This document shows, one piece after another, positions 5,825-59,255 of a stretch of DNA of 64,000 bases. Each line of letters begins with the position of its first letter. Position 1 is the stretch's first letter. The position numbers and the translations under genes are program-made. This DNA is from a bacterium (GTDB lineage Bacteria; CG2-30-53-67; CG2-30-70-394). The notes below the pieces were generated by a model. That model was not told the DNA's origin and ran no database searches. It saw nothing but the letters and a program-made list of their open reading frames with translations. The DNA is taken from the NCBI GenBank assembly GCA_036393335.1, contig DASWHD010000135.1:14405-78404 (forward strand). The letters are read 5' to 3'.

Positions 5825-7424
5825 AGCCATACGGGTGACATTTGTCACCCTCGCCGCCGGTGCGGTGCTGGCAGCATGCGCGCATGGCCCGGCCGGGCCG
5901 GCCCCGGCGCTTCCGGTGTTGGCGCCGCCGCACGTCGAACCGCAGGTATTGCAGGTGATCGACGTCGTCGCGGTCGAGCCAGAGCCCGGGCCGGAGCGGT
6001 TCACCCTGGCGGTGACGGACGCGGACCTCGCCGAGGTGCTGATGGTCCTGGCGAAGGATGCATCGTTCTCCGTCACCCTCGCCCCCGGCGTGCACGGGCG
6101 GGTGACCGGCGACCTCAAGGCGGTGACCCTCAGCGAGGCCCTGGACGCCCTGCTCGAGCCCTTGGGGTATGCCTACCGCATCGCGGGGGAACGGGTGCAC
6201 GTGTTCCCGCCCGGCGTGATGACCCGCACCTTCTATCTCGACTATCTGAACGCCAAGCGCGGCGGCAACACGACCCTGACCATCAGCGCCGGGGCGGGCG
6301 ACGGTGTGGGCGTGGGCGGACATGCGAGCTCTTCCATCAGCCGCAGCGTCGACGTCGACCTCTGGGACGAGGTGGCAACGGGGTTACAGACGGTGATCAC
6401 CTCGGGAGGGACGGCGGCCGGTGCTGTGACCCAGGTGGTGATCAATCGCCAGGCCGGCACCCTTCTGGTGACGGCGCACCCGCCGGTGATGGAGCGGGTC
6501 GCCGCGTACCTGGACGAGATCCAGCGCTCCATCGTTCGGCAGGTGATGATCGAGGCGAAGATCATCGAGGTGCAGCTCTCCGACGGCTTCAAGATGGGGG
6601 TGGACTGGGCGGCCATCCCGGGCATGGCCGGGGGGTTCACCGGCAACCTTACCGGTGGGATCGCCGACAGCCTCGGCCTGCGGCCCAGCCTCAGTCAGGA
6701 CCTCGGCGGTAGCAACACGGCGTTTCGCTTTGGCGCCACCTCCCACGACCTCACCCTTCTCCTGGATGCCATCGCTACCCAGGGACAGGTGCGGGTCCTG
6801 TCGAGCCCGCGTATCGCGGCGCTGAACAACCAGCCCGCAGTGATCAAGGTGGCACAGGAGCAGACCTTCTTCTCCGTAGACCGCCAGACCAACATCGATG
6901 CCGGGGTGCAGCAGGACAATTTCAGCGTGGACAAGGAGAAGTTTACCATTGGCATCGTGCTCGACATCCTGCCGCGCATCGCGGCGGACGGCACGGTGGT
7001 GATGAACGTCCACCCGAGCGTCACGGAGTTCGTCGCGGAGAAGGTGTTCCCACCCACTGCCAGGGGCGATCAGGTGCTCGCCAATGCCCCCATCCTCGAC
7101 GTGCGGGAGATGGACACCGTGGTCCGCGTGCACGATGGCGAGACTCTGGTGATCGCCGGCCTGATGCGCGAGGAGGATCACGAGCAGATCAGCGCCGTAC
7201 CAGTGCTGGGAGCGATCCCGTTTCTCGGCACCCTGTTTCGCAACACGGACCAGCAGCGCCGTAACTCGGAGCTGGTGATCTTCCTCACGCCGCACGTGAT
7301 CGACGAGGCGACCGACCTCGCGGCGGCGTCGCCGCTCAGCGAGCGGCGGTCGAGCTACCACCTGGGCGGCAAGGCGACGCGCTTCGGGGTGGAGGCGGAG
7401 ACCGAGCTGCGGGGGTGGCGATGA
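5811..7424 (+). CDS. Secretin (PilQ/GspD family), predicted lipoprotein
   Basis: Lipobox LAAC near the N-terminus; secretin_N-like repeats; conserved C-terminal secretin domain (LLDAIATQGQVRVLSSPRIAALNNQPAVIKV...LVIFLTPHVI). Confidence 0.85.
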   Translation: MNNVEAIRVTFVTLAAGAVLAACAHGPAGPAPALPVLAPPHVEPQVLQVIDVVAVEPEPGPERFTLAVTDADLAEVLMVLAKDASFSVTLAPGVHGRVTGDLKAVTLSEALDALLEPLGYAYRIAGERVHVFPPGVMTRTFYLDYLNAKRGGNTTLTISAGAGDGVGVGGHASSSISRSVDVDLWDEVATGLQTVITSGGTAAGAVTQVVINRQAGTLLVTAHPPVMERVAAYLDEIQRSIVRQVMIEAKIIEVQLSDGFKMGVDWAAIPGMAGGFTGNLTGGIADSLGLRPSLSQDLGGSNTAFRFGATSHDLTLLLDAIATQGQVRVLSSPRIAALNNQPAVIKVAQEQTFFSVDRQTNIDAGVQQDNFSVDKEKFTIGIVLDILPRIAADGTVVMNVHPSVTEFVAEKVFPPTARGDQVLANAPILDVREMDTVVRVHDGETLVIAGLMREEDHEQISAVPVLGAIPFLGTLFRNTDQQRRNSELVIFLTPHVIDEATDLAAASPLSERRSSYHLGGKATRFGVEAETELRGWR

Positions 7425-12418: not shown

Positions 12419-13195
12419 ATGCTGAACAAACGGATTATCCCGTGTCTCGACGTGACCAACGGACGCGTAGTCAAGGGGGTGAACTTCGTCGATCTGCGGG
12501 ATGCGGGGGACCCGGTCGAGGTGGCGGAGCGCTACGACGCGGAGGGGGCGGACGAACTGACCTTTCTCGACATCACGGCGACTCACGAGGGACGGGACAC
12601 CATCTTGGAGATCATCGAGGCGACCGCGGAGCGGGTCTTCATGCCTCTCACCGTGGGTGGCGGCGTGCGCAACTTGGACGACATCCGCGCCTTGCTCCAG
12701 GCGGGGGCGGACAAGGTGTCGATCAACTCGGCGGCGGTGCGCAATCCCGACTTCATCCGAGCGGCGGCGGAACGGTTCGGCTCCCAGTGCATCGTCGTGG
12801 CCATCGACGCAAAGCGGGTGAGCGATACTCCGCCGCGCTGGGAGATCTTTACCCACGGGGGGCGGCGGCCTACCGGGATCGATGCCCTGGAGTGGGCGGA
12901 ACGCATGGAGGCCTACGGTGCCGGGGAGTTCCTGGTCACGAGCATGGACCGGGATGGGACCAAGATCGGCTACGACAACGAGCTCAACCACGCGATCTCC
13001 AGCCGCGCGCGGGTGCCCCTGATCGCATCGGGGGGGGCGGGCAACCTGGAGCATCTCTATGACGGCTTCGTTGAGGGGGGCGCCGATGCGGTGCTCGCCG
13101 CCTCGATCTTCCATTACCAGCAATACACCATCGGCGAGGCCAAGGCCTACCTGGCGGAGCGCGGAGTCCCGGTTCGTATTTTGGAGCAACGATGA
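12419..13195 (+). CDS. hisF: Imidazole glycerol phosphate synthase cyclase subunit HisF
   Basis: [23 protein letters not shown]... is the canonical HisF N-terminus; start is the internal ATG of the longer ORF. Confidence 0.9.
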
Positions 13196-13902
13196 GTTGG
13201 CTTGATGCGGTGAAATTCAACGCCCAGGGGCTGGTGCCAGCGATCGTTCAAGACGCGGACAATGGTGAGGTCCTGATGCTTGCCTACTGCAACCGCGAGG
13301 CGGCGGAGCTCACCGCCGATACTGGCTTCACTCACTTCTACTCCCGCTCCCGGCAGAAGCTGTGGAAGAAGGGGGAGTCCTCGGGTCACCTCCAGGCGGT
13401 ACGCGAGATCCGCTACGACTGTGACGCGGATACCCTGCTCTTCCGGGTCGAGCAGGCGGTCGCCGCCTGCCACACCGGCCGCCGGAGCTGTTTCTTCAAC
13501 CGGGTCACGGACGGACAGGCCGAGGCGGTCGGAGAGTCGCTATTCGATCCGGTGCAGGTGTACGGCGGGGCGCCGGCGCCTGGGGAGGTGCTGGATGCCT
13601 TGGCGCGGGTGATCGCCGATCGCCGCGCCGCGGACCCGGCATCATCCTACGTCGCCAGCCTATTTTCCGGGGGTGCCAATACCATCGGTGCCAAGCTCCG
13701 TGAAGAGGCGGCAGAGCTGGCGGAGGCGGTCGCACAAGGCGATGAGGTCGCCATGGTGCACGAAGCCGCGGACCTCCTGTTTCACGCCTTGGTCGCGCTC
13801 GGCAGCCGGGGACTCGATCTGCAGTCGGTGCTGGCGGAGCTCAGTGGACGGTTTGGGACGTCGGGCCAGGCGGAGAAGGCCGCACGTGCTCCCGGCGAAT
13901 AG
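13192..13902 (+). CDS. hisI: Bifunctional phosphoribosyl-AMP cyclohydrolase / phosphoribosyl-ATP pyrophosphatase HisIE
   Basis: ATGA overlap with hisF. The N-terminal HisI domain (VPAIVQD...CHTG) is followed by a HisE domain ([11 protein letters not shown]...HEAADLLFH). Confidence 0.9.
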
Positions 13903-39816: not shown

Positions 39817-42117
39817 ATGAAGGTTCTCCTTGCGGCGGCGGTGGTCTGTCTGGTGCTGGTGGCGTCCATCCAGGAGTCGTACTCCGACTCGCCGGAAGGC
39901 AAGCAGGTGGTCTCCATCGAGGTGGTGGGCAATCACCGGGTCGATAATGCGACGATTCTGTCCAAGCTCCTCACCCGACCGGGCAAGCCGTACTCCGGCT
40001 ACTTGTTGCGCAATGACATAGCCACCCTCTTCAAGCTCGGTCAGTTCGACGACATCCAGGTCGACTCGACGGAGGTGCCGGGGGGGATCGCCCTCACCTT
40101 TCGGGTGGTGGAGAAGCCGGCGGTGGTCGCGGTCTCCCACCGGGGCAACGACAAGATCCGCGACGACCTCATCGACCCGGAGGTGCACGTCAAGGTCGGC
40201 GACGTCTACGACGCACGGCGGGTGGAAGAGGACCGGAAGCGGATCCTGGAGCTGTACAAGAAGGACGGTTACGTCTTCGCCGAGGTCACGCCCCAGGTGG
40301 AACGACCGCAGGCGGGCGGGGTGGAGATCACCTACGCCATCGATGAGGGCGCCAAGGTGTCGGTGCGGGAGATCGTCTTCTCCGGCAACACCCACTTCAA
40401 GGAACGCGAGATCCGCAAGGTGATGGCGACCAAGAAGCACAACATGTTCTCCTGGCTCACCGGTTCCGGGGTCTACAATCTGGAGGTGGCCAAGGTCGAC
40501 ATGGACCGGATCCGCGCCCTGTACCACAACGCGGGGTTCATCGAGGCCAAGGTCGGGGGACCCGAGGTACGGCTCTCCGAGGACCGCAAGGAGGCGACGG
40601 TGGTTTTCTCCATCGTCGAGGGGGCGCAGTACACCGTGCGTTCTCTGGCCCTACGCGGCAACGAGCACATCGCCACGGACAAGCTGTTGGAGGGGCTCAA
40701 TACGGTGGTCGGCGAGCTGTACAGCCGGGAGAACGTGCGCAAGGACATCGCCAAGCTCTCGGAGCGGTATGGCGACGAGGGGTATTTTTTCGTCGACATC
40801 GTGCCCCGCACCCAACCGGACGCCGAGACCCACGAGGTCGACCTGGTGTTCGACCTCGAAGAGGGGGAGAAGGCGTACCTCGGTCACATCCAGATCACCG
40901 GCAACGACCGGACCCGTGACAAGGTGATCCGTCGCGAGCTGCGCTTCGACGAGGGCGACCTATACAACAGCAGCAAGATGCGCCGTTCGTTCGAGCGCAT
41001 CAACAACCTCGGCTACTTCGAAAACGTCGAGCTCATCCCCAATCGGCGGGTCGGGAGCAACGTCCTGGACATGGAGATCCGGGTAAAGGAGCGACCGACC
41101 GGCTCGCTCACCATGGGCGCCGGTTGGGGCTCGGCGGACGGCTTCGTCGGCACCTTCTCGATCAGTGAGGCCAACCTGTTCGGTACCGGCCGCAAGCTCA
41201 ACCTTTCCCTGGAGCTCGGGGAGGAGCGATCGCGTATCAACCTGCGCTACCTGGAGCCTTACCTGTTCGGCTACGACATGACCGGGCGGGTGGACATCTT
41301 CAACACCGTCCAGCAATACGACGATTTCGACCGCAAGAGCAGGGGTGGCGCCCTGACCGTGTCCAAGGCATTTGGCGAGTATTACAGCGGTCAGGCCGGC
41401 TACCGCCTCGACTCCCTGGAGATCGACGACGTCAATCCGGACGACGAAGAGGATCTGGCGACGGATACGGTCTCGAGCAGCGTCATCCTCGGCTGGACGC
41501 GCAACACCGTGGACAGCATCTTCGACCCGGCTCGCGGTTCACGGTTGGAGCTAAGCAGTGAGTACGCGGGTGGACCGCTCGCGGGCGACAACGACTTCCT
41601 CAAGCTCTCCGCCGAGCACAACTGGTTCCATCCCCTGTTCTGGAAATCGGTCTTTGGGTTCCACTTCCGCACCGGTTACCTGGCCGACTTCGAGAGCGAT
41701 GACGACGCCAAGGAGGACATCTACCGGCTAGAGGGCTTCTACCTCGGGGGGATCAACTCCCTGCGCGGCTTCGCGCCGCGCTCGGTCGGCCCCAAGTCGG
41801 GGGATTTTACCGGCAATCCGGGGGCGGGTATCGACCTCGGCGGTAACTTCATGCTCCTCGCCAATTTCGAGGTGACCTTTCCCCTGGTGGAGGCGGCGGG
41901 GCTCAAGGGTGTGGTGTTCCTCGACATGGGGGATGCATGGAGTCGCCTGGAGCCGGTGGTGCTCGACGACCTGAAGGTCTCCTCCGGCTTCGGCCTGCGC
42001 TGGCTCTCGCCCCTCGGCCCGCTGCGCCTCGAATGGGGCTACAAGATCACCGATTCGGATGACCTAAGCGATTCGGAGAACTCGCGCTTCGAGTTCTCCA
42101 TCGGCACCTTCTTCTAA
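39817..42117 (+). CDS. bamA: Outer-membrane protein assembly factor BamA
   Basis: Signal peptide; POTRA repeats; C-terminal Omp85 barrel ending ...RFEFSIGTFF; followed by skp-lpxD-fabZ-lpxA as in the canonical locus. Confidence 0.9.
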   Translation: MKVLLAAAVVCLVLVASIQESYSDSPEGKQVVSIEVVGNHRVDNATILSKLLTRPGKPYSGYLLRNDIATLFKLGQFDDIQVDSTEVPGGIALTFRVVEKPAVVAVSHRGNDKIRDDLIDPEVHVKVGDVYDARRVEEDRKRILELYKKDGYVFAEVTPQVERPQAGGVEITYAIDEGAKVSVREIVFSGNTHFKEREIRKVMATKKHNMFSWLTGSGVYNLEVAKVDMDRIRALYHNAGFIEAKVGGPEVRLSEDRKEATVVFSIVEGAQYTVRSLALRGNEHIATDKLLEGLNTVVGELYSRENVRKDIAKLSERYGDEGYFFVDIVPRTQPDAETHEVDLVFDLEEGEKAYLGHIQITGNDRTRDKVIRRELRFDEGDLYNSSKMRRSFERINNLGYFENVELIPNRRVGSNVLDMEIRVKERPTGSLTMGAGWGSADGFVGTFSISEANLFGTGRKLNLSLELGEERSRINLRYLEPYLFGYDMTGRVDIFNTVQQYDDFDRKSRGGALTVSKAFGEYYSGQAGYRLDSLEIDDVNPDDEEDLATDTVSSSVILGWTRNTVDSIFDPARGSRLELSSEYAGGPLAGDNDFLKLSAEHNWFHPLFWKSVFGFHFRTGYLADFESDDDAKEDIYRLEGFYLGGINSLRGFAPRSVGPKSGDFTGNPGAGIDLGGNFMLLANFEVTFPLVEAAGLKGVVFLDMGDAWSRLEPVVLDDLKVSSGFGLRWLSPLGPLRLEWGYKITDSDDLSDSENSRFEFSIGTFF

Positions 42118-42265: not shown

Positions 42266-42272
42266 ATTCTTT

Positions 42273-42473
42273 AGCCCGCATTTCTCACCAGGGATCGTGG
42301 CGAGACCGTGCAAACGCGCGTAGACCCTGGCCGGCCCGCGGTAGGAGCCGATTCTATCGGCGACCCCATGTGGCAGATCGCCGAAGGGATTCGGCTCCTA
42401 CCCCGGACGAGGACCCGGCTAGGAGATGCGGGCGGTTGCGCGGTCGCAGCAGAGTCATGGTGAGAAATGCGGG
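42273..42473. repeat. Palindromic repeat element copy 1 (~200 bp, 16-22 bp terminal inverted repeats CCCGCATTTCTCACCA / TGGTGAGAAATGCGGG; MITE-like or structured RNA)
   Basis: Roughly 75 bp at the 5' end and 50 bp at the 3' end are near-identical to the element at 58276-58502. The internal sequence is an extended imperfect palindrome. Confidence 0.65.
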
Positions 42474-42615
42474 TTAGAGGGGCTGCCAGTCGGCTCGTCA
42501 TCAGGGATTACCCGATGCGCCACCCGCTGGTGGCCGGTGGTCGCGGTTCCGCCTTTCTCCTGGCGGTCGGGTGCCGGATAATGGTCTCTTCACGCAGACA
42601 ACGAAGGAGAGGTCG

Positions 42616-46227: not shown

Positions 46228-46336
46228 AGTAGACAACAGTAGGTAGTAGACAGTAGACAGTAGACAGCAGGGCTCGACTCCGGGCCTGAGGCCGGCTCCC
46301 CTCTGTCTACTGTCTACTCCCTACTGTCTACTCTCC
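46228..46336. repeat. Long imperfect hairpin built from tandem GTAGACA heptamers
   Basis: The 5' arm AGTAGACAACAGTAGGTAGTAGACAGTAGACAGTAGACAG is mirrored by the 3' arm CTGTCTACTGTCTACTCCCTACTGTCTACT around a GC-rich loop. It ends 4 nt before the ATG at 46341. Confidence 0.6.
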
Positions 46337-50856: not shown

Positions 50857-52128
50857 ATGAGCCTGATTCCGTATACCCTGGTGACCGTCTTCCTGCGCGA
50901 GGGGCGGGACAACCCCCGCGACCTGGTGGAGAAGGTCCGCCGCCTCGGTCTCTGCGCCCGCTGCCTGGTCACCCCGGCGAGTGAGGGGTGCTTCGAGAAC
51001 GGGGAGGTGGCGACCACCAAGATCCTCGTCCTCTCCACCGCGCTCCCCAAAAAGGTGGAGATCATCGTGCCGGAGGCCGACACCCAGGCGGTCCTCGACC
51101 TCCTCGACCGCGAGGTGGTCGACGGCATCGTCACGGTGGCGCCGGCGCCGGTGGTCGTGCACCGCACCGCCAAGCGGCTGATTCCCAACCACCTGCAGGT
51201 GCGCCACGTGATGAACCCGTCGGTCACCGTGGCGACGCCGGAGCTGGGTCTGGATGAGGCCGCCCGCCGTCTCGTGGCCGGCGGCCTCGTTGCCCTGCCG
51301 GTGGTCGACGAGGGGCGGCGGGTGGTGGGGGTGCTCAGCCAGCGCGATCTCTTCCAGCAGGGCTACCTGTCATTGCGTGCCGGGCTGTTCGCGATCCTCA
51401 ACGAGGAGGATGCCCGGGAGGTCCTTGCGCCCCTCTCCGGCAAGTGGGCACGGGACGTCATGACCACGCCGGCGGACACGGTACGTGACGATACCTACCT
51501 TCCGGATGCGGTGCGGTTGCTGGAAGAGACGGGGCACAAGCGCCTGCCCGCGGTGGATGAGGAGGGGCGCCTCACCGGCCTCTTCGCCCGCCTCGACATC
51601 CTCAAGGCGATCACCCACCACACCCCCGGGTGGTACGCCAAGGGTGCGGAGCACGTCGACCTGATGCGGGCGCGGACCGTCGCCGACGCCATGCGCCCAC
51701 GCCCGGAGGCGGTGCGCACCGATGGTTCCTTGAGCGACCTCCTGGAACTCTTCCTCGCGACCGGCCGCTGCTGTGTCCCGGTCCTGGACAACGGGGACCA
51801 CTTCCTGGGCCTGGTCTTCGACCGCACCCTGGTGGGCCATCTTGCCGGCCACGGCCGCGGCCTCTGGGAGCTCGTCACCGGCAAGGTCTCCCTCCATGGC
51901 CTCGCCACCCGCCACCGCAGCCTGGCGGAGGCACTTCAGCAGACCAGCGCCGAGGCGCTCCTGGACCGGCAGGTGACGACCATCCGCCCCGAGGCCCCCA
52001 TCGAGGAGGCGGTGCGCCTCATCGCAGCGACCGGCTACCGCTATCTGCCGGTGGTCGATGGCGATGGCCGGCTGGTGGGGTTGGTGGGCCGCACCGACCT
52101 CCTCACCGCCGAGGTGGCTGGCGGGTGA
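50857..52128 (+). CDS. DUF190 (PII-like) plus tandem CBS-domain protein
   Basis: N-terminal MSLIPYTLVTVFLREG...KILVLSTALPKKVEIIVPEA (PII-like/DUF190 pattern), then four CBS motifs (e.g. GLVALPVVDEGRRVVGVLSQRDL; YRYLPVVDGDGRLVGLVGRTDL). Confidence 0.7.
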   Translation: MSLIPYTLVTVFLREGRDNPRDLVEKVRRLGLCARCLVTPASEGCFENGEVATTKILVLSTALPKKVEIIVPEADTQAVLDLLDREVVDGIVTVAPAPVVVHRTAKRLIPNHLQVRHVMNPSVTVATPELGLDEAARRLVAGGLVALPVVDEGRRVVGVLSQRDLFQQGYLSLRAGLFAILNEEDAREVLAPLSGKWARDVMTTPADTVRDDTYLPDAVRLLEETGHKRLPAVDEEGRLTGLFARLDILKAITHHTPGWYAKGAEHVDLMRARTVADAMRPRPEAVRTDGSLSDLLELFLATGRCCVPVLDNGDHFLGLVFDRTLVGHLAGHGRGLWELVTGKVSLHGLATRHRSLAEALQQTSAEALLDRQVTTIRPEAPIEEAVRLIAATGYRYLPVVDGDGRLVGLVGRTDLLTAEVAGG

Positions 52129-56146: not shown

Positions 56147-58255
56147 TTGTTCGGTTTTGGGAACCGCGAGCCGGCTGACACTACCGAGTCCCTCGTTGCC
56201 GTGCGCAAGACCGGTTTTATGGCCTTCTTGAAGCGGCGCATTAACCCGATCGCCGCAGATCGGGCGGAGAAATACGCCCGTTTAGAGGCGCGGGTGGCCA
56301 GTGACACGGCGACCGGTGAGCATTTCAACCAGCTCGGGGACATGAAACGGGAGAAGGGGCTCCTGGAGGACGCCCTGGACCTGTACAAACGCGCCTGCGA
56401 TCAATTCATCGAGGAGGACTTGATCGTCAAGGCGATTGCGGTGGCGAAAAAAATCCTCAAGCAGTTCCCTGAGGATCCTTGCGTCACGGAGATGTACGTC
56501 CGGTTGGGCGAGCTCAACCAGCAACGCGGCATGATCGCCAACGCCAAGGAGGCGTACCTGGTCGCGGCGCAGCGTTACCAGGAGGCGAGCGCCATCCCGG
56601 ACGCCCTGCGCGTCTTCCAACGGCTCGCGGATCTCCTCCCGGACAACATCGACCTGAATGCCGACCTGGCACGCATGTACGTCAAGGAAGGCATGGGCGA
56701 TGAGGCGTCGAACCAGTTCGCTCGCACGGCAACCCGGCTGTTGAAGACCGGGGACTACAAGTTGGCCAAGGAGCTCAGCCTGGCGAGCCTCGGCCAGAAG
56801 GCCGGCAACCGGGAGGCATTGCAGGGCCTCCTCCAGATCGCCTTCTACGAGCAGGACTACAAGGAGGCGGACGCCTACGTGAGCCACCTCGGCCCCTATA
56901 TGGAGTCCGATTGGGGGCTATTGAAGGCGTACGGTGATCTCCTGGTCCGTCAGGAGCGGCATGACGAGGCGCTCGTCCAGTACGAGAAGGCGGTCACCAT
57001 CAATCCCATGAATCAGGAGCTTGCCGCGGTCGTGGAGAGGTTGCGGCGAGCCGAGGTAGACCGCCCGTTGGCGACGCGCGGGGCAGGGCCGGCTACCTCC
57101 GCAGAGCCGCCGGTATTCGACCTCAACGAAGTGGAAGCAGCGGATTTTGACCCTGCCGAGGTGCTCGCCGGTGCGAGCGGGGTTGGAGCCGCGCCGCAAG
57201 ACGCCACCGAGCACGACACGATTGCGACGACCGATGCCGAGGCAACGCGCGCTGGAACGGTGAATCTCGATGACTTTACGTCGCTGTTCGATGGCGTGGC
57301 CGACGCGGCCGGTAGGGCTGCCACCGGCACGGCTGACTCGGAGCCCCCTGCCACAGGGCCAGCGACGCCCCTGGTCGATCCGGACTTCCAGAAGCGGCTC
57401 ACCGAGGCCCGGTTCTACGAAGAACTCGGGATGGATGACGAGGCCAATGAGGTCTACCTGGCCCTGCTAGCTGACCATCCGGACCATCCCGCCCTGGTCC
57501 AGATCGCCGGTCGTCTCGGTCGCAAGGCGTCAGGATCAATGGCAGAACGTGGCGGCCAAGGTGAGGGAGCGGTTGCTCCGGCGGTCACGCCACCGACGCC
57601 GCCGGCCGCCGGCCATGCGACGGGCGCCGGGACGGATGCGGCGCTGGCCGATCTCCTCGCGGAAGCGGAGATTTATCTCGCCGGCACCCTGTTCGATGAC
57701 GCGATCGCCGTCTACCAGAAAATTTTGACGGATCAGCCGAACCATCCGGGTGCCCTTGCCGGGCTCGCCACGGCTCGCGAGCTCTCCGGCGACCCGCAGG
57801 TCCACCGGCAGGAACAAGACTTTGAAGAGGGAATCGAGACGCAGATGACCCACCTCCTCGCCAACCTCGTGGGAGAGGTCGAGACGGACGAGGAAGACCC
57901 CGCACTGCATTTGGAGATGGCCTGGTCGTATCTGGAGATGAACATGGTGGACGAGGCCTTGGTCGAGTTGCAGAGGGTAATGGCGGCCCCGGTCCCACCC
58001 GCGGACCTACACCTGGCCCTGGCCCGGTGTCATGTCATGCGTCGCGCGCAAGAGGACGCCGTACGCAGCTACCAGGCCTATTTGGAATGCTCGCCAGACG
58101 TCGCCCGCGCACAAGACGCTCGTTACGAGCTGGCGCTCATCCTGTTGGAGCGCGGCGAGTGGTCGGCGGCACGCCACCACCTGCAGGTGGTGGTCCAGGC
58201 GGATCCCGTCTTTCGTGATGCCCAGGAGCTACTGAACGGGATCGTGGTGGAGTAG
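56147..58255 (+). CDS. Large TPR-repeat protein (702 aa) with an acidic low-complexity central region
   Basis: Multiple TPR-like units at both ends (e.g. YKRACDQFIEEDLIVKAIAVAKKIL; AIAVYQKILTDQPNHPGALAGLA). The N-terminus is uncertain: TTG 56147 or ATG 56219. Confidence 0.55.
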   Translation: MFGFGNREPADTTESLVAVRKTGFMAFLKRRINPIAADRAEKYARLEARVASDTATGEHFNQLGDMKREKGLLEDALDLYKRACDQFIEEDLIVKAIAVAKKILKQFPEDPCVTEMYVRLGELNQQRGMIANAKEAYLVAAQRYQEASAIPDALRVFQRLADLLPDNIDLNADLARMYVKEGMGDEASNQFARTATRLLKTGDYKLAKELSLASLGQKAGNREALQGLLQIAFYEQDYKEADAYVSHLGPYMESDWGLLKAYGDLLVRQERHDEALVQYEKAVTINPMNQELAAVVERLRRAEVDRPLATRGAGPATSAEPPVFDLNEVEAADFDPAEVLAGASGVGAAPQDATEHDTIATTDAEATRAGTVNLDDFTSLFDGVADAAGRAATGTADSEPPATGPATPLVDPDFQKRLTEARFYEELGMDDEANEVYLALLADHPDHPALVQIAGRLGRKASGSMAERGGQGEGAVAPAVTPPTPPAAGHATGAGTDAALADLLAEAEIYLAGTLFDDAIAVYQKILTDQPNHPGALAGLATARELSGDPQVHRQEQDFEEGIETQMTHLLANLVGEVETDEEDPALHLEMAWSYLEMNMVDEALVELQRVMAAPVPPADLHLALARCHVMRRAQEDAVRSYQAYLECSPDVARAQDARYELALILLERGEWSAARHHLQVVVQADPVFRDAQELLNGIVVE

Positions 58256-58275
58256 CTAGCCCCATCCTCCACGCT

Positions 58276-58502
58276 AGCCCGCATTTCTCACCAGGGATCG
58301 TGGCGAGACCGTGCAAACGCGCGTAGATCCTGGCTGGCCCGCGGTAGGAGCCGAATCCCTGCGGCGACCCAGGCCCGTAGGGCCTGCTGCGTGGATCGCC
58401 GGTGCAACCGGCTCCTACCCCTGTCGAGGACTCGGATGAGGACCCGGCCAGGAGATGCGGGTGGTTGCGCGGGCGCAGCAGATTCATGGTGAGAAATGCG
58501 CG
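58276..58502. repeat. Palindromic repeat element copy 2 (~225 bp; TIR GCTAGCCCGCATTTCTCACC / GGTGAGAAATGCGCGCTAGC)
   Basis: Shares the terminal ~75/~50 bp with copy 1 and carries an extra ~25 bp internally. Its distal GCTAGC overlaps the TAG stop of the hydrogenase small-subunit gene. Confidence 0.65.
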
Positions 58503-59255
58503 CTAGCGACGGCCGAGTAGCCGCAGGAGGCCATCGAGGATGGTGAACGGGTGGGGTGGGCAGCCCGGGACGAACAGGTCGACCGGCACCACTGCATCGG
58601 CCCCATTCAGCACCTCCGGATGGTCGATGAATGGTCCACCGGCGATGGCGCATGCGCCCACCGCGATCACGAGCTTGGGTGTGGGCACCGCGTCGTAGGT
58701 GAGACGCACGGCCTCGGCCATGTTGCCGGTCACGGGACCGGTGATGACCAGGGCATCGGCGTGGCGCGGTGAAGCGACCACCTGGATGCCAAACCGGCCG
58801 AGGTCGAAGCCGATGGTGCCCAGGACGTTGAAGTCCGCCTCGCACCCGTTGCACCCGCCGGCGCTCACCTCGCGGATGCGCAGGGCGCGGCCGTAGAGGG
58901 CGCGGATCTTGTCGGAAAGCGCGGTAGCGAGCGGCAAATCGTGGCCATCGGTGAGCAGGCCGTCCCGCGCCCGTGTCGCCAGCCGGTAATCCTGGGAGAA
59001 GACGATCGCCCCGTCCAGGCAGGCGTCGCTACAGGCGGTGCAGAAGAGGCAGCGCCCCAGGTCGATCCGCACGTCGCCGTCCAGCCGGATGGCGTCCGTA
59101 GGGCAGGCCGCCGCACACCGCTGGCAACCGTCCGGGCACTTTGTCGCGTCGACCACCGGCAGGCCGCGGAAACGGTCCGGGAGCAGTGGCTCCGCGCGCG
59201 GAAAGGCGCTGGTGCGATACCCCTGGCGGAGACGGGTGCCCAGGATTTTCAGCAT
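58503..59255 (-). CDS. Hydrogenase/complex-I-like small subunit (NuoB/HycG fold) fused to an N-terminal 2x[4Fe-4S] ferredoxin domain
   Basis: N-terminal ferredoxin motifs (CPDGCQRCAAACP, CLFCTACSDAC); NuoB/HycG cysteines (GGCNGCE ... GACAIAGG ... PGCPP). Confidence 0.8.
   Translation of the reverse strand: MLKILGTRLRQGYRTSAFPRAEPLLPDRFRGLPVVDATKCPDGCQRCAAACPTDAIRLDGDVRIDLGRCLFCTACSDACLDGAIVFSQDYRLATRARDGLLTDGHDLPLATALSDKIRALYGRALRIREVSAGGCNGCEADFNVLGTIGFDLGRFGIQVVASPRHADALVITGPVTGNMAEAVRLTYDAVPTPKLVIAVGACAIAGGPFIDHPEVLNGADAVVPVDLFVPGCPPHPFTILDGLLRLLGRR

What the first reader, a model, noticed from the sequence alone, without database searches (positions are those of the whole stretch)
58254..58505. 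Copy 2 of the palindromic element sits between convergent genes and supplies the stop codon of the hydrogenase small-subunit gene
Copy 2 is ~25 bp longer internally than copy 1. Its termini extend to a GCTAGC hexamer on both sides (GCTAGCCCGCATTTCTCACC ... GGTGAGAAATGCGCGCTAGC). The distal CTAG is read on the minus strand as the TAG stop of the small-subunit gene (…LLGRR*, stop at 58503-58505). On the other side a second GCTAGCC overlaps the TAG stop of the TPR gene (58253-58255). The element is therefore wedged exactly between two stop codons, which suggests insertion at a TAG-containing target or an element-borne stop.
Basis: seen in the sequence. Interest (0 to 1): 0.55.

Follow-up and report, generated by a model that had tools for sequence, protein, structure and literature searches.

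The report
Small mobile hairpin inserted at stop codon
The "palindromic element" is a 225-base non-coding jumping-DNA element (a MITE) that inserts at the four-base target C/T-T-A-A/G and copies it on both sides, so the hydrogenase gene keeps its own stop codon and an unchanged protein; this is an ordinary, though tidy, case.

Summary
The sequence facts hold. The element is 58278-58502 (225 nt) with 15-nt terminal inverted repeats, CCCGCATTTCTCACC...GGTGAGAAATGCGCG. It is flanked by a direct CTAG repeat at 58274-58277 and 58503-58506. Copy 1 (42275-42473, 199 nt) is flanked by TTAG/TTAG.

Public contigs hold at least 104 distinct copies of this family, 144-363 nt long. Three quarters of their flanking tetranucleotides are YTAR. 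Left and right flanks match far more often than chance. Conservation drops sharply just outside CCCGC|. This indicates a 4-bp target-site duplication.

The small-subunit stop (TAG, 58505-58503 on the minus strand) lies in the right duplicate, so it is the gene's own stop, copied. An orthologous locus without the element has a 250-aa protein of the same length and only 26 nt between the convergent genes.

About 31% of family copies abut the stop of a coding-like ORF, against 10% of control YTAR sites. One copy (L060) sits exactly between two convergent stops.

The second GCTAGCC at the TPR stop lies outside the element, 18 nt from the left duplicate.

No autonomous transposase partner was found, so the IS family is inferred (IS5-like by target). 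No Rfam family, plasmid record or paper in the libraries searched matched it, so I class it as a new member of a known kind, of modest interest.

The parts
58278..58502 (+). MITE copy 2, 225 nt, non-coding. Polarity is defined by the left end ...CACCAGGGATC and the right end GATTCATGGTG...
   Evidence: It folds as one long hairpin. It is 91-96% identical to other 225-nt copies that have different flanks.
58278..58292 (+). Left terminal inverted repeat, CCCGCATTTCTCACC. Imperfect complementarity continues to about 58299.
   Evidence: (I19). These positions are 93-100% conserved across 104 copies.
58488..58502 (+). Right terminal inverted repeat, GGTGAGAAATGCGCG. It has one substitution relative to the family consensus ...GCGGG.
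58274..58277 (.). Left copy of the 4-bp target-site duplication, CTAG.
58503..58506 (.). Right copy of the target-site duplication, CTAG. Bases 58503-58505 read on the minus strand are the TAG stop of the small-subunit gene.
58503..59255 (-). Group-4 [NiFe]-hydrogenase-type small subunit: a NuoB/HycG-like Oxidored_q6 domain with an N-terminal 4Fe-4S ferredoxin domain. 250 aa, ending ...LLGRR*.
   Evidence: Pfam domains; homologues. The orthologue P0002 is also 250 aa and ends ...LLDRR*.
56147..58255 (+). TPR-repeat protein gene, convergent with the hydrogenase gene. Its TAG stop is at 58253-58255.
   Evidence: The TAG stop is kept in relatives that lack the element.
58256..58273 (.). Native 18-nt spacer between the TPR stop and the left duplicate. 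It contains an unoccupied CTAG at 58256-58259 and is not part of the element.
   Evidence: The orthologous spacer in L014 is 26 nt.
42275..42473 (+). MITE copy 1, 199 nt, in the same orientation. It lies between the bamA stop (42115-42117) and skp.
   Evidence: It is 92-96% identical to other 199/200-nt copies elsewhere.
42271..42274 (.). Left target-site duplication of copy 1, TTAG.
42474..42477 (.). Right target-site duplication of copy 1, TTAG.

Best explanation

Inferred mechanism. The transposase binds the 15-22-nt terminal inverted repeats (CCCGCATTTCTCACC...). It joins the element into a target tetranucleotide YTAR cut with a 4-nt stagger. Gap repair then duplicates the target on both sides.

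Shown. In the window the target was the CTAG that already held the TAG stop of the hydrogenase small-subunit gene. The original sequence was ...cacg CTAG cgacgg..., 18 nt from the TPR stop. After insertion the right duplicate still ends the gene at the same codon, so the protein is unchanged.

Shown for the family. Landing on stop codons is a family habit. YTAR always contains TAG or TAA on both strands, and YTAR is about 6-fold depleted in this 67% G+C DNA. Gene ends are therefore a large share of the tolerated targets.

Inferred. The partner transposase is of a type that makes 4-bp YTAR duplications. IS5-group is the best-known example; IS701 also makes exact 4-bp duplications. Any effect of the roughly 100-bp hairpin on the two convergent transcripts (stalling, 3'-end protection) is possible but untested.
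For: - Terminal inverted repeats with CTAG/CTAG flanks at copy 2 and TTAG/TTAG flanks at copy 1.
- 104 distinct complete copies with unrelated flanks in metagenome and MAG contigs, in discrete size classes: 176, 199/200, 218/219, 225 and 245 nt.
- 155 of 206 flank tetranucleotides are YTAR.
- Left and right flanks are identical in 44 of 104 copies against 26 expected, with 0 of 20000 permutations reaching 44. Position 1 agrees between left and right with Fisher p = 1e-7.
- Right-arm TIR positions are 96-100% conserved, but the four flank positions only 67-94%. The right-flank first base is not inherited with sequence relatedness. TTAG/TTAG, CTAA/CTAA and TTAA/TTAA copies have unrelated flanks and belong to different size classes.
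- Empty sites: L125 and L059 carry one tetranucleotide where L066 and L102 carry two plus the element. L014 is an orthologous TPR/small-subunit junction with a 26-nt spacer, no element and a 250-aa protein.
- 32 of 104 copies abut the stop of a GC3-rich ORF of at least 80 codons, against 81 of 808 control YTAR sites.
- In L060 the element lies exactly between two convergent stops, both inside CTAA duplicates.
- The window has 73 YTAR sites against 434 expected from base composition.
- IS5 makes YTAR duplications (PMC10359306). IS701 makes exact 4-bp duplications (PMC2266710).
Against: - No autonomous element with these termini and a transposase gene was found in any held locus or in plasmids. 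The transposase family is therefore unproven.
- From memory, the IS5 terminus (GGAAGGTGCGAA...) does not resemble this one.
- 58% of copies have non-identical flanks. I attribute this to decay of old insertions (mostly transitions of CTAG), but that is an inference.
- For CTAG-flanked copies the sequence alone cannot separate a 4-bp duplication from a TA duplication with one extra terminal base. The discrimination rests on family statistics.
- All contigs of the window's own population carry both copies, so no recent movement is shown for these two copies.
- The closest empty orthologue (79% aa identity) is too diverged to align the spacer base by base.
Confidence: 0.85

Rival explanations
1. 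IS630/Tc1-mariner-type MITE. The real target is CTAG (NTAN) and only the central TA is duplicated. The element would then be one base longer at each end (G...C).
For: From my own knowledge, IS630 inserts at CTAG and duplicates TA. For CTAG/CTAG-flanked copies, including copy 2, the two models give the same sequence. Left position 4 and right position 1 are weakly complementary across copies (p = 0.025).
Against: The putative extra terminal bases are only 87% (left) and 73% (right) conserved, next to TIR positions at 96-100%. The 'terminal' right base matches the left flanking base (p = 1e-7), which is not expected if one is element and the other is flank. It does not follow element relatedness. 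Nine independent TTAG/TTAG copies would each need a G...T terminal mismatch together with a T in the flank.
Confidence: 0.07
2. A host-selected structured element, such as a bidirectional terminator or an RNA-stabilising hairpin. On this view its position between convergent genes reflects function rather than tolerated insertion.
For: The hairpin is very stable (z = -8.7 and -11.2). The stem is kept through some double changes: one pair is CG in 43 sequences and UA in 19. An AT-rich version in another phylum is still palindromic. Copies are enriched at gene 3' ends. MITE transcripts are discussed as possible terminators in PMC10969869.
Against: No terminator-like or promoter-like consensus was found and no Rfam family matched. 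The element's two ends face gene stops about equally (15 left, 19 right). Copy 1 sits inside the bamA-skp-lpxD gene row, where termination would be harmful. The L066 insertion lies in a stretch whose uninterrupted counterpart in L125 reads as protein-coding. The dispersed, target-duplicated copies show spread by transposition. A function, if any, would be secondary.
Confidence: 0.1
3. A hairpin element moved as single-stranded DNA by a tyrosine (HUH) transposase: a REPIN/RAYT element or an IS200/IS605-derived palindromic element. The flanking tetranucleotide would be a recognition or cleavage site, not a duplication.
For: The element is palindromic over its whole length. It has a fixed tetranucleotide next to both ends.
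Against: By established knowledge those elements make no target duplication and lack true terminal inverted repeats; REPs carry a 5' GTAG. Here the left and right tetranucleotides co-vary within subfamilies (TTAG/TTAG beside CTAG/CTAG among close relatives). Empty sites hold one tetranucleotide.
Confidence: 0.03
4. The element supplied a new stop codon and shortened or altered the small-subunit C-terminus (element-borne stop).
For: The stop lies directly against the element's last base. The orthologue uses TGA rather than TAG.
Against: The orthologue without the element is the same length (250 aa) and ends ...LLDRR* against ...LLGRR*. Other homologues end at or a few residues beyond this point. 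The CTAG is flank by the conservation boundary.
Confidence: 0.03

Closest known systems
IS5-group insertion sequences (IS5 family) and MITEs derived from them
   Same: A 4-bp target-site duplication with the consensus YTAR (CTAG, TTAG, CTAA, TTAA), as reported for IS5 (PMC10359306). Short terminal inverted repeats.
   Different: From memory, the terminal sequence CCCGCATTTCTCACC does not resemble the IS5 terminus. No transposase partner was found. The element is palindromic over its whole length, not only at its ends.
IS701 family
   Same: A highly conserved target duplication of exactly 4 bp (PMC2266710).
   Different: The published end consensus (---YACT-Y--YR) does not fit CCCGCATTTCTCACC. 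The paper's main text does not state the target sequence. No partner was found.
IS630 / Tc1-mariner-derived bacterial MITEs, such as Correia elements
   Same: Small palindromic non-coding repeats found in intergenic DNA and at gene ends. The target contains a central TA, and IS630 prefers CTAG (my own knowledge).
   Different: Those elements duplicate only TA. Here family statistics support a 4-bp duplication.
REP/BIME and REPIN elements
   Same: Abundant extragenic palindromes made of mixed modules, often between convergent genes.
   Different: REPs are 20-40 nt, carry a 5' GTAG, have no target duplication and are tied to RAYT genes. This element is 144-363 nt with TIRs and a duplication.
piggyBac / IS1380-type elements
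   Same: CCC...GGG termini and a 4-bp TA-centred palindromic target. piggyBac uses TTAA and IS1380 makes 4-5 bp duplications (my own knowledge).
   Different: This is a resemblance only. No transposase is in hand and no test was possible.

Membership tests
MITE (non-autonomous DNA transposon) | Terminal inverted repeats | tested here: met
   The 15-nt core CCCGCATTTCTCACC / GGTGAGAAATGCGGG extends imperfectly to about 22 nt. These positions are 93-100% conserved over 104 copies.
MITE (non-autonomous DNA transposon) | Flanking target-site duplication | tested here: met
   CTAG/CTAG at copy 2 and TTAG/TTAG at copy 1. Flanks are identical in 44/104 copies against 26 expected (0/20000 permutations). 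Position-1 agreement has p = 1e-7. Empty sites carry one tetranucleotide.
MITE (non-autonomous DNA transposon) | Small size with no room for a transposase | tested here: met
   The window copies are 199 and 225 nt; the family ranges from 144 to 363 nt.
MITE (non-autonomous DNA transposon) | Many dispersed copies at unrelated sites | tested here: met
   104 distinct copies with unrelated flanks.
MITE (non-autonomous DNA transposon) | Presence/absence at orthologous sites | tested here: met
   Filled/empty pairs: window and L014, L066 and L125, L102 and L059. All these pairs are between diverged genomes (79-87% identity). No within-population polymorphism was seen.
MITE (non-autonomous DNA transposon) | A cognate autonomous element with the same termini | tested here: inconclusive
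   None was found in about 0.7 Mb of held loci, in plasmids or in viral contigs.
IS5-group derivative | 4-bp YTAR target duplication | tested here: met
   75% of flank tetranucleotides are YTAR, and the rest are mostly one substitution away. IS5 reference: PMC10359306.
IS5-group derivative | Termini resembling those of an IS5-family member; DDE transposase of Pfam DDE_Tnp_1 type | not testable with these tools
   No ISfinder library is available and no partner is in hand. The lack of resemblance to the IS5 terminus rests on memory only.
IS630/Tc1-mariner MITE | TA dinucleotide duplication only | tested here: not met
   The outer positions of the tetranucleotide behave as duplicated flank, not as element termini.
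REP / REPIN (RAYT-mobilised) | No target duplication; 5' GTAG; units of 20-40 nt | tested here: not met
   A duplication is present. The termini are CCCGC...GCGGG and the length is 144-363 nt.
IS200/IS605-derived palindromic elements | Subterminal hairpins without TIRs; insertion 3' of a fixed tetra- or pentanucleotide without duplication | tested here: not met
   True TIRs are present, and the left and right tetranucleotides co-vary.
Curated RNA family / intrinsic terminator | A match to an Rfam model, or a stem followed by a T-tract | tested here: not met
   No Rfam hit at gathering score in the whole window. No terminator-like site in 57800-59000.

The most novel reading that the evidence does not exclude
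The full-length hairpin, rather than only the termini, may be what is selected. The same 23-nt terminus is kept across MAGs labelled as different phyla, while the interior is replaced by different sequence that is still self-complementary. This includes an AT-rich version in a Neomarinimicrobiota MAG, together with interchangeable small palindromic modules. That pattern could mean the element moves through, or is maintained by, a hairpin intermediate. It could also mean hosts keep it as a bidirectional 3'-end structure that lets tightly packed convergent genes be separated without changing either protein.
Probability: 0.1. Interest if true: 0.55.

Novelty: new member of a known kind. Interest (0 to 1): 0.3.

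Why it matters
- It explains a feature that looks odd at first: a repeat that appears to supply a gene's stop codon. The cause is ordinary, namely a YTAR-specific element whose target duplication regenerates the stop.
- It shows a general consequence for G+C-rich genomes. YTAR is scarce there (about 6-fold under base-composition expectation), so stop codons become preferred and harmless landing sites.
- About a third of the family's copies touch the stop of a coding-like ORF. The element can even pull apart two convergent genes whose stops overlapped (L060).
- For annotation, it flags an abundant repeat family that no Rfam, plasmid or paper search here matched. The family occurs in uncultivated bacteria labelled Nitrospirota, and probably fragments their assemblies, since many copies lie at contig ends.
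- This repeat should not be mistaken for an RNA gene or a terminator.

Tried and rejected
- Rfam at gathering score over the whole window: no match.
- Promoter and terminator consensus scans around both copies: nothing inside the elements.
- BLASTN of copy 2 against 72,556 plasmids: only two weak 35-nt chance hits.
- Viral contig scan with the terminus: 0 hits.
- Full-text search for the terminus sequence: only chance 12-mers in unrelated papers.
- Search for an autonomous partner. I looked at ORFs next to lone termini, at pairs of termini 700-4000 nt apart with up to 4 mismatches, and at the nature of all lone termini. These turned up only neighbouring MITEs, truncated copies or contig ends.
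- Within-population empty sites. All six contigs encoding the identical small subunit carry copy 2. The one contig with the identical LpxD that reaches upstream to the bamA-skp spacer (L136) has a spacer long enough to hold copy 1; the other contig (L137) does not extend that far. One look-up failed on frame and one on start-codon choice.
- Relatives at 88-91% DXR identity. The TPR gene is there followed by a glycosyltransferase, not the hydrogenase, so they give no empty site for this junction. They do show that the TPR TAG stop is native.
- The idea that the CTAGCCCC spacer after the TPR stop is a decayed terminus: rejected, because 27% of control YTAR sites score as well.
- A literature check on IS1380 target specificity returned nothing usable.
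Full report
**What is in the window**

Between the TPR gene (56147..58255, +, TAG stop at 58253-58255) and the convergent small-subunit gene (58503..59255, -) lie 247 nt. CTA at 58503-58505 is the minus-strand TAG stop after ...LLGRR. GCTAGCC at 58255-58261 overlaps the last base of the TPR stop.

The repeat finder pairs 58272-58299 with 58481-58508 at 89% complementarity. It also finds copy 1 at about 42272-42477 in the same orientation. The terminal 14-mer occurs four times in the window against 0.64 expected.

Both copies fold as a single long hairpin. Copy 2 gives -142 kcal/mol (z = -8.65) and copy 1 gives -133.8 kcal/mol (z = -11.2); no shuffle folds as well. Copy 1 lies between the bamA stop and skp, inside a bamA-skp-lpxD gene row.

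**Where the element really ends**

- Copy 1 reads ...ggattcT TTAG | CCCGCATTTCTCACC ... GGTGAGAAATGCGGG | TTAG agggg.
- Copy 2 reads ...cacg CTAG | CCCGCATTTCTCACC ... GGTGAGAAATGCGCG | CTAG cgacgg.

The inverted repeat is the same in both copies, but the flanking tetranucleotide differs between copies and is identical on the two sides of each copy. That is the signature of a 4-bp target-site duplication.

The resulting boundaries are:
- Copy 2 is 58278-58502 (225 nt), with duplicates at 58274-58277 and 58503-58506.
- Copy 1 is 42275-42473 (199 nt), with duplicates at 42271-42274 and 42474-42477.

The GCTAGC hexamers are the CTAG duplicate plus one flanking base (G on the left, C on the right) and the element's own terminal C or G. 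The original target was therefore g-CTAG-c.

**The family**

- An exact-match scan of one genome per species found the terminus in six MAG contigs. These are labelled Nitrospirota (two contigs of one MAG), Nitrospirae CG2_30_70_394, Neomarinimicrobiota, Chromatiales and Deltaproteobacteria. The Neomarinimicrobiota copy has AT-rich flanks and an AT-rich but still self-complementary interior.
- From all held loci I extracted 104 distinct complete copies of 144-363 nt. Their sizes peak at 176, 199/200, 218/219, 225 and 245 nt.
- The two window copies belong to the 199- and 225-nt classes. Each has relatives at 92-96% identity with unrelated flanks.
- The alignment shows conserved outer arms and exchangeable inner modules. 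One module is a 20-nt palindrome, CCTGCCTGCCGGCAGGCAGG, that sits at different positions in different copies.
- Nothing matches in Rfam, in plasmids, in viral contigs or in the paper library by sequence.

**Is the tetranucleotide a duplication or part of the element?**

- Of 206 flanking tetranucleotides, 155 are YTAR: CTAG 95, TTAG 30, CTAA 18, TTAA 12. Most of the rest are one substitution away.
- The two flanks are identical in 44 of 104 copies against 26 expected from the marginals, and none of 20000 permutations reaches 44. The first base (C or T) agrees between left and right with Fisher p = 1e-7.
- There is a sharp conservation boundary. Right-arm TIR positions are 96-100% conserved, but the four flank positions only 67-94%.
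- The first base of the right flank does not follow element relatedness. Elements with T there have nearest relatives with C 17 times and T 6 times.
- The 14 copies with identical non-CTAG flanks have unrelated surroundings and span several size classes.
- These results argue against an IS630-like model, in which TA is duplicated and the element is one base longer at each end. They support a 4-bp YTAR duplication.
- The many discordant pairs (for example CTAG/CTAA) differ mostly by transitions. That fits decay of old insertions, but this is an inference.
- Three filled/empty comparisons inside the held loci agree. L125 has ...CTGC TCAA GGGCC... where L066 has ...TTGC TTAA [element] TTCG GGGCC.... 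L059 has ...GGTCGA GCAG AATCG... where L102 has ...GGTCGA CTAG [element] TTAG CATCG.... The third pair (L028 and L088) is discussed under items noticed in passing, because its "empty" site holds a lone terminus.

**The stop codon**

The right duplicate carries the TAG of the small-subunit gene. Because the duplicate is a copy of the target, the stop is the gene's own.

The closest orthologue I could find is P0002 (79% identity), on a 1.6-kb contig (L014). That contig has the same convergent arrangement with the TPR orthologue (...LLAGIAVE*), only 26 nt between the two stops, and no element. Its product is 250 aa ending ...LLDRR*, against 250 aa ending ...LLGRR* here. The reconstructed pre-insertion spacer in the window is 18 nt. 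The C-terminus was therefore not changed by the element.

On the other side, the TPR stop is not in contact with the element. Relatives at 88-91% DXR identity end the TPR gene with GAG TAG as well but continue with GTCG..., and they have no element there. The spacer 58256-58273 is no more terminus-like than 27% of control YTAR sites. The CTAG at 58256-58259 is simply a second, unoccupied target.

**Do other copies abut stops?**

Yes. In 32 of 104 copies the stop triplet inside a duplicate closes an ORF of at least 80 codons with a coding-type GC3 excess. Fifteen are on the element's left side, 19 on the right, and two copies on both. Among 808 YTAR sites in the same contigs that are not insertion sites, 81 (10%) do so.

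In L060 a 176-nt copy (931-1106) flanked by CTAA/CTAA lies exactly between two stops. One is the TAA of a 295-aa ORF. The other is the TAG of a 169-aa ORF whose N-terminus carries a P-loop-like motif (GMPGAGKST); I did not test its family. Before insertion the two stops shared one CTAA.

The reason is compositional. Every YTAR holds TAG or TAA on both strands. YTAR is also scarce in this DNA: the window has 73 sites against 434 expected from base composition and 193 from dinucleotides, and 10 of the 73 close a coding-like ORF. Insertions inside genes are presumably lost, though the L066 copy interrupts a stretch whose uninterrupted L125 counterpart reads as coding.

**Mechanism, and what is not shown**

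Shown:
- terminal inverted repeats;
- a 4-bp duplication with YTAR preference;
- many dispersed copies;
- filled/empty pairs;
- an unchanged protein end.

Inferred: mobilisation in trans by a DDE transposase that cuts the target with a 4-nt stagger. IS5 is the textbook YTAR case (PMC10359306), and IS701 also gives exact 4-bp duplications (PMC2266710).

I found no autonomous partner. Lone termini are truncated copies or contig ends, and pairs of termini 0.7-4 kb apart are neighbouring MITEs.

The hairpin could influence the two convergent transcripts, but several observations argue that any such role is secondary:
- there is no terminator consensus;
- the element's two ends face gene stops about equally;
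- copy 1 lies within a gene row.

One stem pair shows a double change (CG in 43 sequences, UA in 19). This is weak evidence, because the alignment is of related copies.

**Host lineage**

The DXR protein's nearest named relative (90% identity) is from a MAG labelled Nitrospirota. Contigs encoding the identical small subunit come from several ENA and JGI metagenomes. One of these (3300033417, contig Ga0214471_...) shares its contig prefix with many of the family hits. The family is therefore abundant in this lineage and its community, with outlying copies in MAGs of other phyla. MAG binning errors cannot be excluded for the G+C-rich outliers.

**Verdict**

This is a real feature with an ordinary explanation. 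It is a new family of a known kind of element, and the stop-codon contact is a predictable by-product of YTAR targeting plus target duplication. Its "TAG-containing target" reading is right. "Element-borne stop" and "exactly between two stops" are not.

Noticed in passing
window 46236-46332: An intergenic hairpin whose arms are built of tandem heptads: GTAGACA about 5 times, then TGTCTAC about 4 times in inverted orientation. The arms are 40 nt and 83% complementary, 12 nt apart. It is unrelated to the MITE and its nature is unknown.
   Followed up: no
L060:927-1110: A 176-nt family copy flanked by CTAA/CTAA lies exactly between the TAA stop of a 295-aa ORF and the TAG stop of a convergent 169-aa ORF with a P-loop-like N-terminal motif. 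Before insertion the two stops overlapped on one CTAA.
   Followed up: yes
L028:1807-1990 versus L088:5877-6040: The site orthologous to a filled locus is not empty. It holds TTAG plus a lone 19-nt terminus (GCCGCATTTCTCACCAGGG). In the filled locus the element is followed by a degenerate terminus-like stretch (TCGGCATGGCTCACCAGGG). This could be a deletion between direct terminus copies, or a re-insertion at the duplicate of an older remnant. It is unresolved.
   Followed up: partly
L125 around 6034-6082: A 41-nt mini-element made only of the two termini, flanked by CTAG/CTAG: CTAG CCCGCATTTCTCGCCACGATCCCTGGTGAGAAATGCGGG CTAG.
   Followed up: no
alignment A2 (for example L019, L024, L040, L082, L099): A 20-nt perfect palindrome, CCTGCCTGCCGGCAGGCAGG, occurs as an optional module at different positions (left arm, centre or right arm) in different copies. 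It accounts for several of the size classes.
   Followed up: no
L015:4838-4880 (also L016): In a 3.3-Mb contig of a different lineage, a terminus remnant (CCCGCATTTCTCACCAGG) lies about 94 nt downstream of a small-subunit orthologue with 70% identity. It is preceded by GGCTAGCCCCGGCTAGCCAG, a second case of this family next to the same kind of gene. This is probably coincidence.
   Followed up: partly
L066:417-600 versus L125:2151-2317: Here the element interrupts a stretch that reads as protein-coding in the empty relative (...FDIQKVLERLLLKGHIVVKK...). The target was a TTAA or TCAA out of frame in CTT AAG, so not all surviving copies are intergenic.
   Followed up: partly
L119:11703-11886 and 13172-13355: Two 176-nt copies 1469 nt apart share the same immediate flanks (TTCCTTAG ... 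TTAGATGG). This suggests a segmental duplication that included the element rather than two separate insertions.
   Followed up: no
window 51295-52104: A 60-nt direct repeat family (3 copies, 60-70% identical) inside a coding region. It may be repeated domains of one gene. I did not translate it or test this.
   Followed up: no
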